From: Haliotis cracherodii
Taxonomy: Eukaryota
Reading direction: 5' to 3'
Assembly: GCF_022045235.1 (NCBI RefSeq)
Contig: NW_027266266.1
Location: 186,001-250,000, forward strand
Length of the DNA: 64,000 nucleotides
Shown here: positions 7,625-18,344 of the stretch, piece after piece
Position numbering within the stretch: the stretch's first letter is position 1
How the letters are laid out: every line of letters begins with the position of its first letter
Notes under the pieces: generated by a model
What the model was told of the DNA's origin: nothing
Databases searched by the model: none
What the model saw: only the letters and a program-made list of their open reading frames with translations
Translations under genes and position numbers: made by a program

Positions 7625-7710
7625 TTTCACATGGTTTAAAATTAATTGCGAACATAAGATTGGTTCGAAAGACAGACAGTAGTTGTGTGCATCGGTCTGG
7701 AACCAGAACC

Positions 7711-7893
7711 AAGATGGCGGCACTTCCGTTTCCGGTGACGCGCGCATCCAAGATGGCGACACTTTCGTTTCCGGAGGCGCACGCCTCCAAGATGGCGGCA
7801 CTTCCGTTTCCGGTGGCGTGCGCATCCAAGATGGCGTCACTTCCGTGTCCGGTGGCGCACGCCTCCAAGAGGGCGTTGCCACCGTTTCCGGGG
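7711..7893 (+). promoter_or_regulatory. 39-bp tandem subrepeats in the TIR carrying YY1-like (AAGATGGCGG) and ETS-like (CACTTCCG, TTTCCGG) motifs
   Basis: Units start at 7711, 7750, 7789, 7828 and 7867 (partial). The right TIR has one extra unit. Motif function is inferred from consensus matches. Confidence 0.6.
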
Positions 7894-7970
7894 AGGATAG
7901 GGGAAAACCCGGAGAAGCGCACGTAAAAGGTGAACGGGATCGACATTGAAAGAAGCGCGTCAAAAATCGT

Positions 7971-8005
<35 letters not shown>

Positions 8006-8175
8006 CTAAACATAGACGGGGTGCCGGTGGTGAAGGGAGGGAGGGAGGGAGGGTGGTGGTGGTGAAGGGAGGGAGGGGAGGGAGGGAGGGAGGGAGGAAA
8101 GGAGGAGGAGACGGGTTCATGGTTTGGGTTGGAGGGTCGTCAAAGCAAAGGATGAGAGTTGTCTTTTGGGTGAGA

Positions 8176-8199
8176 TGGGTGGCCCTGAAAAGGGTCGTT
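8176..8199 (-). terminator. Histone mRNA 3' stem-loop-like signal, copy 1 (in left TIR)
   Basis: Minus strand reads AAC-GACCCT-TTTC-AGGGCC-ACCCA-TCTCACC-CAAAAGACAAC, with one stem mismatch versus consensus. Confidence 0.7.
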
Positions 8200-8338
8200 G
8201 GAAAACAAACTGGAAACTGGAAACTGGAAACGCCAGGAAACGGTAGGAACACTGGAACACTGGAACACTGGAAAAACTGGAAAAACTGGAAACGATGGGA
8301 CACTGGTACAAACAGTGGAGCAGCATGCCCCTCATGTG

Positions 8339-8614
8339 TTAGTCACTTTGTTCAGATGATCTATCATCTTCATCCTCTACTTCCATCTCATCCTCGGACT
8401 GAAGGTGTCGTCGGCGCTTTGAAGCGTGCTTTCTTGAGAGGCTTCTGATCCGTTTTCTTTTCTCTACACGAGGTGTGATGCCTGGTCTGCACCTCGGTTT
8501 TCCAAAACCACGTTTTCTCGCTTCTTGTTCTCCCACCTTTTCAGACACCCACTCGGAATTTGGGACAACATCTTGGGAGGATGACATGGCATTCATAGAC
8601 CGTCTTTGCTCCAT
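8339..8614 (-). CDS. Hypothetical 91-aa charged protein of the Polinton left arm (basic NLS-like stretch, acidic tail)
   Basis: ATG-initiated ORF with KRKRIRSLSRKHASKRRR and an EDEMEVEDEDD tail, oriented toward the left-TIR stem-loop. It overlaps a fragment of the promoter repeat, so it may not be a real gene. Confidence 0.3.
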   Translation of the reverse strand: MEQRRSMNAMSSSQDVVPNSEWVSEKVGEQEARKRGFGKPRCRPGITPRVEKRKRIRSLSRKHASKRRRHLQSEDEMEVEDEDDRSSEQSD

Positions 8615-9162
8615 GATGACTGTGACTTCACTGAACGAAGGTCTGAGGGTTCGCCTGATTTTATGAAACTCTCCTCCCTACTTCCCTTCAACGGAAGGTC
8701 ATGACCTCCACCTCCTCCTCCTTCATCTCATCACGTGACGTCATCCTGTGTTTGGGTTGACTGACACGCGGCATGATACATGACACACGAGGATGTGGTG
8801 ATGTGACCTGGAATGATTGACACCAGGCAGCTGATCTTTCAAGCATGACCTTTGTCGTTTATCTATTTTTATTTTAATTTTACACTTTGGTGTGCACTGA
8901 CATGACAGACGCACAGACAGACAGACAGATAGCGTAGACGACATCTCAACTCAACCTCTACCCTCGGTTCGGTACTCTATTGGAGTTGAGATCAATCAAG
9001 ACACAAAGAGTCAGTTCAATCAATCACTGTTTAATAATGAAAAAACCCAATCACAACCAGATACATTGGAAATACGAAAAGACAATGGCGGAGGGAGTGC
9101 TTTGCATGTCCCTACAACAACGCGGCAACGTTTTCCTCTTTCCTCTTCAAGCTCTTCTATCT

Positions 9163-15763: not shown

Positions 15764-16060
15764 GAGGGCGACGTTTCCCGTGTCCTGTGTTCCTGTTCAA
15801 GTTCCCGTTCCAGTTCCGGTTCAAGTTCCCGTTTGTCTACTGCTGTTGTTGTGGATGGTTCAGTCTGTTTCCGCTTCCTGTTTCCTACAAGCTTTTCTTT
15901 TGTTGGACCCCACAAGTGTTGGCACATAGGGCACCCCGATGACATACCCAGATGGTATACCCAGATGACAGCAAGTACCGTTTCGACGATCCTTGTCTTG
16001 TCATAAGCTTGGACATGATGATTCTTCTTGGACAGCAGCAGAAAAGTTTTCTTCTTTCCC

Positions 16061-16105
16061 AAAACGGCCCTTTTCAGGGCCACCCATCTCACCCAAAAGA
16101 CAACT
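16061..16105 (+). terminator. Histone mRNA 3' stem-loop plus downstream element, copy 2 (perfect consensus)
   Basis: AAAAC-GGCCCT-TTTC-AGGGCC-ACCCA-TCTCACC-CAAAAGACAAC, stem at 16066-16081. AATAAA follows at 16192. Confidence 0.85.
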
Positions 16106-16811
16106 TTCATCCCTTGCTTTGCCAAACAACGACAATCCAAAACAAAGAACCCACACCCTCCCCTTAGACCTCTTGGAGGCACACGTGTAAAAATAAAATA
16201 AATAGATATAAATATAAATATATAAATAGAGACACGTGGTACACTACGTGTGCATGGAGACACGAGTCAAACATCACGTGTGCATGAAAACACGTGTCGC
16301 AGTACGCCTGTCGACTTACACGGGTGTCAACACCTCGGTATCATTAAAGAATCATAATGATAATTTGAAGACACACACACACACACACACACACACAGGA
16401 CACGACGTTTGCATCACGTTGGTGTATTGATCTTTCTCTATTCATCTCAATACTACATCCATGGTTGTAGTCACACACACATACATACACGGGGCATCAC
16501 GACATTTTGCCTGACAACATGCGTGAAACACTTCGTGTACCTGGTAACACGTATGACAGTACACCCGTCAACCTACACGAGTGTCAGCACCTCGGCATCA
16601 TTCATAATAATAATAATAATCATTCTATGGATCAACGTAAACGTCTGTTTGAAGACAAACACACACAGAACATTCCGATTGGCATGGGAGTAACACAACG
16701 TACATCACGTAAGCATTCTTACATCACGTTCATGCCTACTTATGACGGTCCACCTTAAGCATTCAGACGACCATCTACCTAAAAATACCAAGGCTACCCA
16801 AGAAAAAAACC

Positions 16812-17133
16812 GGATCGAAATCTGACCAATCCGAAGCCTGGGTTGTCGACCAATCAGAGGCCGCGCTCGGACCAGGCTGGGCTCTCACTGGCCGAACCGG
16901 GGTTGTGCTTTCTCTCCCATGGTAAAATCCATTTCCTATGGAAAAGAAACACAGGGGTCGGTCCGCTTTGGAAAACCGAGGTGCTGGCCAGGCACCGGAA
17001 CGAACCAATCGGGGCTGCGGCCTGGGGAACCAACCAAGAAGCAGGGTGTCAGTACCTCTCCTATAAAACAAGAGTGGATTCGAATGGATCAGTCACTTGT
17101 AAAATTTATTCGAAAAATCAAGAATAACTGAAA
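16812..17133 (+). promoter_or_regulatory. Repeated Polinton promoter cassette, copy C
   Basis: CCAAT boxes, CCTATGGAAAAGAAACAC core, CTATAAAACAAGAGTGGATTCG TATA region and TCAGT. Lies upstream of the Cys-rich ORF. Confidence 0.7.
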
Positions 17134-17447
17134 ACTGGGATCTGGAGCTAGCCTCAGTGGTGCACCCTTTGCCACTGTGCAAAGGGTGTCGCTCGGAGTT
17201 GGAGAAGAAAGAAGCAGTACCGCCATTGCCATTGCCTCCACCATGGCAATGCGGTACATGCCAAGGGGGCCTGCCTGTGTACGCCCTTGGCACAAAGGCA
17301 TGGGATGGAACATTTCAATGTGTGTACTGTAAGACCATCCTCAAGGACACCTACGTGCGGCGGTTAACGCACACCGGTAGGTGTCCTGTGAGGAGACAGA
17401 TGAATGTCCACCCGTGCCTTTGCACCGCTGCGTGCACTTGCATGTAA
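17124..17447 (+). CDS. Polinton Cys-rich (three CxxC plus terminal Cys cluster) zinc-binding-like protein; no upstream ATG
   Basis: Open frame from ATA 17124: CKGC..PPLPLPPPWQCGTC..CVYC..CLCTAACTCM*. It sits between promoter copy C and a histone stem-loop 10 nt after the stop. Confidence 0.6.
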   Translation: MTENWDLELASVVHPLPLCKGCRSELEKKEAVPPLPLPPPWQCGTCQGGLPVYALGTKAWDGTFQCVYCKTILKDTYVRRLTHTGRCPVRRQMNVHPCLCTAACTCM

Positions 17448-17452
17448 GCATC

Positions 17453-17498
17453 AAAACGGCCCCTTTTCAGGGCCACCCATCTCACCCAAAAGACAACT
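17453..17498 (+). terminator. Histone mRNA 3' stem-loop-like signal, copy 3 (in right TIR)
   Basis: AAAAC-GGCCCCT-TTTC-AGGGCC-ACCCA-TCTCACC-CAAAAGACAAC, with one extra C in the 5' stem arm. Confidence 0.75.
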
Positions 17499-17975
17499 CT
17501 CATCCTTTGCTTTGACGACCCTCCAACCCAAACCATGAACCCGTCTCCTCCTTTCCTCCCTCCCTCCCTTCCCTCCCTCCCTTCCCTCCCTCCCTACACC
17601 ACCGGCACCCCGTCTATGTTTAGAACAACAACGACAACAACAAACGATTTTTGACGCGCTTCTTTCAATGTCGATCCCGTTCACCTTTTACGTGCGCTTC
17701 TCCGGGGTTTCCCCTATCCTCCCCGGAAACGGAGGCAACGCCCTCTTGGAGGCGTGCGCTACCGGACACGGAAATGCTGCCATCTTGGATGTGCACGCCA
17801 CCGGAAATGGAAGTGCCGCCATCTTGGAGGCGTGCGCCACCGGAAACGGAAGTGCCGCAATCTTGGATGCGCACGCCACCGGAAACGAAAGTGACGCAAT
17901 CGTGGATGCGCGCGCCACCGGAAACGGAAGTGCCGCCATCTTGGTTCTGGTTCCAGACCGATGCACACACCTACT
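17455..17975 (-). repeat. Right terminal inverted repeat of the Polinton
   Basis: Reverse complement of 7678-8199 with substitutions, one more 39-bp unit and shorter microsatellites. Confidence 0.93.
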
Positions 17976-18344
17976 ACAGACAGTACTAAGGCGTTGTGAA
18001 TTTTGCTATGTGAAAACAACAAATTTCGCCACCTTTAAATTTTCGCCGATAAAACTACTCTGGGATGAACATCATTATTGACAGCTTTATGTAAACTGTA
18101 AGCGAAGCTGATACTTCATGTTTTCTGAACGACATACTTGTATCTCAAATGGAGTTGTAAGTTTATATATGACGTCACACATGTATTTTATTGTTAAACC
18201 ATTTTTGTAACTGTATTATATTGTTTCTGCTGCGATTCGGTAGAAGCTCATTGCATTGTATTTGGACATTGATTAGTTGTCAGGAATGTAGTACTATTTA
18301 ATTACGGAATGTAAGAAAGTTTCTATATTTAGATGATAGTGCTG

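What the first reader, a model, noticed from the sequence alone, without database searches (positions are those of the whole stretch)
7672..17981. Integrated Polinton with intact ends and TSD but no integrase, capsid, ATPase or protease: deletion derivative, satellite or one segment of a split genome
Seen: intact AG...CT termini, a perfect 6-bp TSD, pPolB and only small regulatory-type genes in 10.3 kb. I found no recognisable retroviral-type integrase, major or minor capsid, packaging ATPase or adenain remnant. Established: canonical Polintons are larger, encode these genes, and owe their 6-bp TSD to their integrase. Inference: either it integrated using a helper's integrase as an 'early-gene-only' replicon or segment sharing TIRs with a structural partner, or the late module was deleted, for example by recombination between the promoter repeats.
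Basis: partly seen in the sequence, partly recalled or inferred. Interest (0 to 1): 0.7.

Follow-up and report, generated by a model that had tools for sequence, protein, structure and literature searches.

The report
Gutted abalone Polinton lacking virion genes
A 10-kb virus-like jumping element in an abalone genome has kept its ends and a now-broken DNA polymerase gene but has no integrase or capsid genes; it is likely a shortened offshoot of an ordinary Polinton that likely spread with a helper's integrase, a kind of derivative that is expected rather than new.

Summary
Confirmed, with corrections. The element is 7678-17975 (10,298 bp), with AGTAG...CTACT ends, ~520-bp TIRs and a perfect ACAGAC duplication. 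No integrase, capsid, ATPase or protease remnant is found by profile searches that recover held-out 50-aa pieces (minor capsid only 6 of 19). It is not intact: pPolB lies in six frame pieces. It belongs to an abalone (Haliotis) family of tens of copies whose oyster sister elements carry an integrase. Reads show all parts at 0.35-1x pPolB depth except a spacer at 16.2-16.6 kb. Contigs from two studies cross that spacer without inserted genes, so the short layout is probably not unique to this locus. TIR depth does not exceed pPolB depth, which argues against a partner segment. Excess promoter-repeat depth suggests longer relatives exist. Best reading (0.5): a non-autonomous deletion subfamily integrated in trans, then decayed. 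Rivals: deletion after insertion (0.3), family-wide satellite (0.13), split genome (0.05). No genome was held, so full-length copies could not be inspected.

The parts
7672..7677 (.). left target-site duplication ACAGAC
7678..8199 (.). left TIR; AGTAG terminus, array of 39-bp units (7709-7875) with AAGATGGC and CCGGAA motifs
   Evidence: YY1/ETS labels for these motifs are recalled
8339..8614 (-). 91-aa ORF with basic and acidic tail, no family hit; may not be a gene
9169..10473 (-). spliced accessory gene: basic/Thr-rich exon plus Cys-rich zinc-binding end (9318-9784), frame broken near 9.62 kb, partial duplicate of the Cys-rich end at 9169-9291
   Evidence: Haliotis RefSeq models P0421, P0423, P0424 span both exons; zinc binding is inferred (atlas leads under 0.9)
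10568..10779 (-). promoter-like repeat P1
   Evidence: absent in some other copies (joint 10475-10852); promoter role inferred
10839..14943 (-). protein-primed PolB in six frame pieces (breaks near 14.19, 13.6, 13.0, 11.9 and 11.67 kb)
   Evidence: PF03175; one 345-aa piece 83-91% identical to nine Haliotis clusters; piece map
15019..15311 (+). promoter-like repeat P2 (CCAAT boxes, TATAAAA) between the divergent pPolB and IAP genes
   Evidence: role inferred
15392..15763 (+). single-BIR IAP-like gene, open frame
   Evidence: PF00653 E 2e-22
16060..16121 (+). internal copy of the 60-bp inner end of the TIRs, a putative shared 3'-end signal
   Evidence: role inferred
16156..16669 (.). non-coding seam of two diverged ~257-bp units; lowest family depth; shorter in other copies; likeliest site of the missing module
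16801..17133 (+). promoter-like repeat P3; read depth 1.6-3.2x pPolB
17103..17447 (+). Cys-rich open frame without an ATG at its start, no family hit
17452..17975 (.). right TIR with one more 39-bp unit than the left; CTACT terminus
17976..17981 (.). right target-site duplication ACAGAC

Best explanation
This is a decayed copy of a multi-copy abalone element with Polinton ends and a broken Polinton polymerase gene but no integrase or virion genes, likely a shortened non-autonomous offshoot that was likely inserted by the integrase of a full-length relative. Steps: (1) the ancestor carried INT and the virion module (inferred from sister elements); (2) the ~6.5-kb module was deleted, most likely in the right arm near the 16.2-16.8 kb seam, between cassettes bounded by repeated promoter and 3'-end sequences (inferred; 10.3 + 6.5 = 16.8 kb, the usual size); (3) the short form kept both TIRs, so it could be copied from its protein-primed ends and integrated in trans, giving the 6-bp TSD (ends and TSD shown; trans action inferred); (4) after insertion this copy accumulated frame breaks (breaks shown; timing inferred).
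For: Absence of late genes tested with validated profiles: INT = rve + chromo, PRO hits adenain, MCP folds like a double jelly roll. Held-out 50-aa pieces were recovered 19 of 19 (INT), 10 of 10 (ATPase), 18 of 20 (MCP), 4 of 5 (PRO), 6 of 19 (mCP). Ancestral state: the abalone clade falls in a group with oyster pPolBs and loci L003/L023/L024; L024 carries ATPase, INT, mCP and MCP; 6 of 17 listed oyster INT models lie within 3 identifiers of a listed pPolB model on a contig of the same length. Multi-copy: raw-read depth over pPolB is about 24 (X20) and 7 (X19) against 0.48 and 0.16 in the left flank; 38 protein models in 9 clusters, 36 listed. Shared layout: TIRs, left arm, IAP and ORF3 lie at 0.39-1.03x pPolB depth and only 16223-16623 falls to 0.07-0.28x. 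Contigs join 16155 to 16670 in X6 (depth 107; junction contigs 10-17) and X5 (194; long contigs 23-35), two studies; 16344 joins 16609 in X5 (65). These skips of 514 and 264 bp equal about two and one spacer units. None of the 6 best-supported loose ends listed per raw-read run (cut-off 13-14 reads) lies at the pPolB 3' end, whereas the left-TIR junction gives 30 and 38 reads.
Against: No helper with these ends was seen; none could be looked for. The short junctions account for only about a tenth of contig depth in X5 (194 + 65 against about 2,700 at 16757), have only 28 letters on the short side, and summed contig depth is not a copy number. Most right-arm copies therefore have unknown sequence at the seam, and loose ends at repeats 16188-16235 and 16362-16405 were dropped by the tool. 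P3 depth is 1.6-3.2x pPolB and 20 and 17 reads run into mixed unknown sequence before 16803, which fits full-length copies being common and this deletion being local. The left arm was laid only at 400-bp resolution with a 20-read display cut-off, so a module there in up to about half of the copies is not excluded. Only the best-supported rows were shown (1,509 and 1,923 loose ends hidden).
Confidence: 0.5

Rival explanations
1. A full-length Polinton inserted here with its own integrase, and the late module was deleted afterwards in the host chromosome, for example between direct promoter repeats. The layout is private to this locus or a few loci.
For: This copy is decayed (five frame breaks; 3.7-4.1% of sites differ from most reads). 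Promoter-repeat excess and mixed loose ends before 16803 show other copies hold sequence missing here. 96% of vertebrate Mavericks are degraded (PMC8097293, passages). pPolB plus TIR without INT occurs at 10 loci across 18 C. elegans strain assemblies (10.1101/2024.01.15.575659, passages).
Against: Short junctions across the seam appear at several times single-contig depth in two studies. Seam sequence is also covered in a run labelled as another organism (X8). TIRs are 97.5% identical outside the array, leaving limited time for a clean loss of 6.5 kb with no remnant.
Confidence: 0.3
2. The whole abalone family lacks the late module and lives as a satellite of other resident Polinton families, borrowing their integrase and perhaps capsids while carrying its own polymerase and host-control genes.
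For: No dominant breakpoint was displayed anywhere in the interior. TIR, left-arm and right-arm depths are similar. No Haliotis-named INT among the best 120 of 2,807 and of 3,066 hits, nor fused to any of the 59 Haliotis-cluster models scanned. In the H. asinina sister family a CARD gene is annotated next to or fused behind pPolB. An assembly recalled as H. rufescens has 125 INT-linked pPolB rows, so helpers are plentiful (PMC10748475 Table S3).
Against: The INT searches list only 4% of hits and are inconclusive. Promoter excess is unexplained. Table S3 has rows with 1,360-1,399-aa pPolB and a strong INT 2-10 kb downstream that may be this family (cannot be mapped). No model tested had every polymerase motif (0 of 10), so retention of a working pPolB is not shown.
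Confidence: 0.13
3. One segment of a bipartite genome; a second segment with the same TIRs carries INT, capsids, ATPase and protease.
For: Clean absence of the whole late module with both ends present; bipartite pPolB viruses with matching termini exist (bidnaviruses; PMC8502044, passages). Extra promoter-repeat copies could sit on a partner.
Against: TIR depth is 0.55 (X19), 0.65 (X20) and 1.03 (X6) times pPolB depth, not about 2. Loose ends at the inner TIR boundary give this copy's own left-arm sequence (agreement 0.63). Sister elements are monopartite. Caveats: reads were cut at repeats inside the TIR, and a partner under 85% alike would be missed.
Confidence: 0.05
4. Late genes are present but unrecognised, or the locus is a collapsed assembly.
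For: The mCP profile is weak (6 of 19 held-out pieces). No single contig spans the element.
Against: The largest unassigned gaps are about 0.96 and 0.6 kb, against 6.0-6.5 kb for the module. Four of five profiles are sensitive. Both junctions are seen in X6.
Confidence: 0.02

Closest known systems
Polintons/Mavericks (adintoviruses) of marine invertebrates, e.g. oyster elements and locus L024
   Same: 100-1,500-bp TIRs, 6-bp TSD, related pPolB (41-45% identity to oyster proteins), IAP and Cys-rich accessory genes (PMC8502044, passages and section 3.1)
   Different: No INT, ATPase, PRO, MCP or mCP; 10.3 kb against 13-25 kb (PMC10748475, passages); pPolB broken
Capsid-less Polintons (9 of 72 lacking MCP, PRO and ATPase; PMC4028283, section 4 read)
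   Same: Concerted absence of the morphogenesis genes
   Different: The integrase is missing here too; the section read does not report INT loss
C. elegans Polinton remnants with pPolB1 and TIR but no INT (10.1101/2024.01.15.575659, passages)
   Same: pPolB and TIR without integrase
   Different: Described as partial remnants; here both TIRs and the TSD are present and short junctions recur in other copies
Defective but amplified polintons lacking polB in Pieris mannii (10.1101/2025.02.07.637071, passages); non-autonomous Polintons of Kapitonov and Jurka 2006 (recalled, paper not held)
   Same: Core-gene loss with TIRs kept and apparent continued spread
   Different: Those lose polB or all coding sequence; this keeps pPolB and loses INT and virion genes
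Bidnaviruses (bipartite, Polinton-type PolB; PMC8502044, passages)
   Same: A pPolB-bearing molecule bounded by inverted repeats
   Different: No excess of shared ends pointing to a second segment; integrated with a TSD

Membership tests
Polinton/Maverick (autonomous) | TIRs of 100-1,500 bp with AG...CT termini | tested here: met
   size range from PMC10748475, AG...CT recalled
Polinton/Maverick (autonomous) | 5-8-bp (usually 6-bp) TSD | tested here: met
   ACAGAC
Polinton/Maverick (autonomous) | protein-primed PolB | tested here: met
   PF03175, but in six frame pieces
Polinton/Maverick (autonomous) | retroviral-like integrase | tested here: not met
   so filed as Polinton-derived, not as an autonomous member
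Polinton/Maverick (autonomous) | MCP, packaging ATPase, adenain-like protease | tested here: not met
   with profiles validated
Polinton/Maverick (autonomous) | minor capsid protein | tested here: inconclusive
   no hit, but the profile recovers only 6 of 19 held-out pieces; its label rests on gene order and recall
Non-autonomous deletion derivative | cis ends kept, mobilising enzyme absent | tested here: met
Non-autonomous deletion derivative | same short layout at several independent insertion sites | tested here: inconclusive
   short seam junctions in X5 and X6 and even depth; flanks of other copies not seen
Non-autonomous deletion derivative | autonomous partner with the same ends | not testable with these tools
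   no genome held
Bipartite genome segment (bidnavirus-like) | second molecule with matching termini in comparable number | tested here: not met
   TIR depth 0.55-1.03x pPolB
Bipartite genome segment (bidnavirus-like) | partner encodes the structural genes | not testable with these tools
   no genome held
pPolB1 or pPolB2 class (Jeong 2023); Alpha or Beta adintovirus (Starrett 2021) | placement of pPolB with reference sequences | not tested
   the tree held no labelled references

The most novel reading that the evidence does not exclude
An abalone-wide lineage of early-gene-only Polinton satellites: tens of ~10-kb copies in several Haliotis species that carry their own protein-primed polymerase and apoptosis or cell-control genes in promoter-gene-terminator cassettes, have no full-length parent left, and spread by borrowing integrase and capsids from other resident Polinton families.
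Probability: 0.15. Interest if true: 0.65.

Novelty: new member of a known kind. Interest (0 to 1): 0.3.

Why it matters
As a decayed deletion derivative it matters little: degraded Polintons, capsid-less Polintons and integrase-less remnants are all in print. It would matter if the 10-kb layout is a self-propagating subfamily. Large surveys select on integrase or late genes (PMC10748475 keeps only INT-linked pPolBs; PMC8502044 started from adenain), so pPolB-only elements are missed by design. A repeated pPolB-positive, integrase-negative form with its own TSDs would show that Polinton integrases act in trans on large substrates, and would give an animal example of a Polinton satellite.

Tried and rejected
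Viral contigs: nothing with the single pPolB piece, 2 distant loci with the alignment. The TIR-inner pattern had 0 matches in viral and prokaryote collections; 4 promoter-pattern matches showed no BLASTN similarity to the element. Two integrase searches to find an abalone INT next to pPolB listed no Haliotis name in the best 120 of 2,807 and 3,066 hits: inconclusive. RefSeq identifier adjacency worked for oysters but not for the abalone zinc gene and pPolB. Table S3 of PMC10748475 cannot be mapped to this family; 3 of 6 recalled accessions had no rows, and about 112 of the 125 rows of one assembly were read. Joint 15081-16902 was rejected as proof of an IAP-less variant: P2 here lacks ~60 bp that P3 has, so longer P2 copies mimic it; a real deletion is not excluded. 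Joint 17445-16053 likewise reflects the repeated 3'-end element. A weak INT-like match on the strand opposite BIR (tblastn E 0.003, hhalign 17%) is at chance level for the number of comparisons. Expression: no RNA holder listed; X1 is only guessed to be RNA, so its depth pattern is not used. Atlas: no usable hit for the 191-aa exon, RING-like leads under 0.9 for the Cys-rich end. MCP had no Pfam or PDB sequence hit, hence the fold check. My early label 'pPolB2/VSR type' was dropped as untested. Literature searches listed no paper on this abalone family or on a segmented Polinton; subscription journals and Repbase are not covered, and bioRxiv supplements were closed and may bear on the C. elegans and Pieris comparisons. 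Earlier-findings look-ups were empty in 7 of 8 calls.
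Full report
Observation. The element spans 7678-17975 (10,298 bp) between two ACAGAC copies, with AGTAG and CTACT termini. A 6-bp match at these boundaries has a chance of about 3e-4. The TIRs are about 520 bp and contain an array of 39-bp units, with one more unit on the right. They are 92.8% identical overall (461 of 497 ungapped columns) and 97.5% outside the array (273 of 280). Contigs of run X6 cover both junctions with 0 and 1 differences; that run may be the source sample.

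Anatomy. pPolB runs 14943-10839 on the minus strand in six frame pieces. Downstream is a spliced accessory gene whose two exons are joined in three of four Haliotis RefSeq relatives; it ends in a Cys-rich domain and is broken here. The right arm has an open single-BIR gene (PF00653, E 2e-22) and a Cys-rich frame at 17103-17447. Three promoter-like repeats (P1, P2, P3) and three copies of a 60-bp element (inner end of each TIR and 16060-16121) divide the interior into what look like promoter-gene-3'-end cassettes; these roles are inferred from motifs.

Absence of late genes. I built profiles from 82 loci with related pPolBs and validated them: INT is rve plus chromo, the ATPase hits Pox_A32, PRO hits adenain structures, and the MCP model matches Sputnik, iridovirus and PBCV-1 capsids. 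HMM searches of 279 six-frame fragments gave a best E of 3.1. hhalign of 8 profiles against 161 fragments gave a best probability of 17%, on the strand opposite BIR. Held-out 50-aa pieces were recovered 19 of 19, 10 of 10, 18 of 20, 4 of 5 and 6 of 19 times for INT, ATPase, MCP, PRO and mCP, so only the mCP test is weak. There is also no room: the largest unassigned gaps are about 0.96 and 0.6 kb, while the module takes 6.0-6.5 kb in L024 and L004. Adding it gives 16.8 kb, close to the 16.9-kb mean of intact vertebrate Mavericks (PMC8097293, passages).

Host and family. A 345-aa pPolB piece is 83-91% identical to nine clusters named from Haliotis cracherodii and H. rufescens, 51-57% to other abalone families and 41-45% to oyster proteins. 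The nine clusters hold 38 models, 36 listed: 16 H. rufescens, 19 H. cracherodii, 1 unnamed; some may be pieces of one copy. None of 10 tested had all eight motifs, and all 8 H. cracherodii models lacked the motif C pattern; these are gene models, so the cause is unknown. Seventeen runs from 9 studies and 4 organism labels hold part of the stretch, none half of it or more. Raw-read depth over pPolB is about 45-50 times the left-flank depth in X19 and X20, though flank counts are very small.

Ancestral state. The abalone clade groups with oyster pPolBs and L003/L023/L024 (support 0.95). Of 27 loci of 8 kb or more, 13 show at least one late or INT gene; 55 shorter loci were left out of that count. 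Six of 17 listed oyster INT models lie within three identifiers of a listed pPolB on a contig of the same length. So the lack of INT is a loss.

What other copies look like. No genome was held, so I laid reads (4 runs, 3 studies, at least 85% alike; 4 runs, 2 studies, X20 and X21 one sample, at least 80%). Relative to pPolB, TIRs are at 0.55-1.03, left arm 0.63-0.77, IAP 0.39-0.63, ORF3 0.45-0.71 and 16514-16752 at 0.35-0.52. Only 16223-16623 collapses (0.07-0.28), and 15797-16035 is low in X8 (0.18). The seam is two diverged units of about 257 bp. Contigs skip 514 bp of it in X5 and X6, from different studies, at several times single-contig depth, and 264 bp in X5. Those copies have the IAP cassette next to the P3 spacer with nothing inserted. 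The pPolB 3' end shows no loose-end stack among the six best rows per raw run, while the left-TIR junction gives 30 and 38 reads. Against a family-wide short layout: the short junctions are about a tenth of local contig depth, with 28 letters on the short side; P3 depth is 1.6-3.2 times pPolB; 20 and 17 reads run into mixed unknown sequence before 16803; loose ends at two repeats inside the seam were dropped; and the left arm was seen only coarsely. Summed contig depth is not a copy number.

Mechanism. Most likely (0.5) a deletion removed the INT-capsid-protease-ATPase block, and the short form, with both ends, was copied and integrated by a helper's integrase before this copy decayed. The ends, TSD, gene absence, frame breaks and multi-copy depth are shown. 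The deletion site, helper and order of events are inferred. Deletion after insertion (0.3) explains the TSD equally well and fits the promoter excess. A family with no full-length parent (0.13) is not excluded. A split genome (0.05) predicts about twice as many TIRs as pPolBs, which is not seen.

Comparison. It fails the integrase test, so I file it as Polinton-derived and non-autonomous, not as an autonomous Polinton. Precedents: 9 of 72 Polintons lack MCP, PRO and ATPase (PMC4028283, section 4); pPolB and TIR without INT at 10 C. elegans loci (10.1101/2024.01.15.575659, passages); amplified polB-less polintons in Pieris (10.1101/2025.02.07.637071, passages); 96% of vertebrate copies degraded (PMC8097293, passages); IAP and Cys-rich accessory genes in adintoviruses (PMC8502044, passages and section 3.1). 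For PMC10748475 and its preprint I read passages, preprint section 8 and parts of Tables S2 and S3. PMC3014272, PMC6431247 and 10.1101/2025.04.19.649669 were read as passages and added nothing specific. Non-autonomous Polintons in Kapitonov and Jurka 2006 are recalled only. Seven searches listed no description of this family or of a segmented Polinton.

Verdict. A real, well-bounded but decayed Polinton derivative; a new member of a known kind; interest 0.3. The satellite-lineage reading (probability 0.15) would deserve about 0.65 and can be settled by one census of TIR pairs in an abalone assembly.

Noticed in passing
window 7672-7681 and 17976-17985: The direct repeat extends to 10 bp because the host bases after the right TSD match the first four bases of the element; chance or a target preference.
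   Followed up: partly
P0001, P0005, P0006, P0136, P0138-P0140, P0142 (H. cracherodii models): All 8 tested models lack the pPolB motif C pattern and 5 lack the motif A pattern, several skipping the same stretch (window 11442-11240): a shared lesion in an amplified subfamily, or a gene-model artefact.
   Followed up: partly
P0355, P0361, P0363 (H. asinina sister family): A CARD-domain gene (PF00619) is annotated next to or fused behind pPolB, so abalone Polintons carry more than one kind of apoptosis-related cargo.
   Followed up: partly
window 10475-10852: Some copies lack promoter repeat P1, joining the pPolB end to the zinc gene (X5 3 contigs, X6 7, X8 9).
   Followed up: no
window 15821-16064: Other copies lack about 240 bp behind the IAP gene (X5, X6, X19).
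   Followed up: no
window 8479-8511: A 33-bp piece of the promoter repeat lies inside the small left-arm ORF.
   Followed up: no
L077:6902-14066: A pPolB-bearing contig with four tandem MCP-like ORFs.
   Followed up: no
L069:1-15029 and L061:1-14872: Two ~15-kb loci with fragmented pPolB and none of the late-gene clusters; other possible late-gene-less or decayed elements.
   Followed up: no
PMC10748475 Table S3, GCA_003343065.1 rows: Most rows read are a family with ~1,270-aa pPolB and an adjacent 957-bp ORF scoring only about 110-120 on the INT profile, against 400-490 for canonical INTs: possibly a divergent integrase class.
   Followed up: no
window 18228-19000: A high-copy host repeat lies about 250 bp right of the insertion (depth above the element's).
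   Followed up: no
window 21151-22615, 24.6 kb, 45384-47162, 56096-57298: Host context judged by eye from translations: LINE-like RT remnant, a cytochrome P450-like exon, a core-2/I-branching glycosyltransferase-like ORF and a RING/B-box (TRIM-like) ORF; labels recalled.
   Followed up: no
window 5468-6483, 30577-32617, 39310-42448, 59481-64000: Long minisatellite arrays giving spurious open frames and strong GC skew.
   Followed up: no
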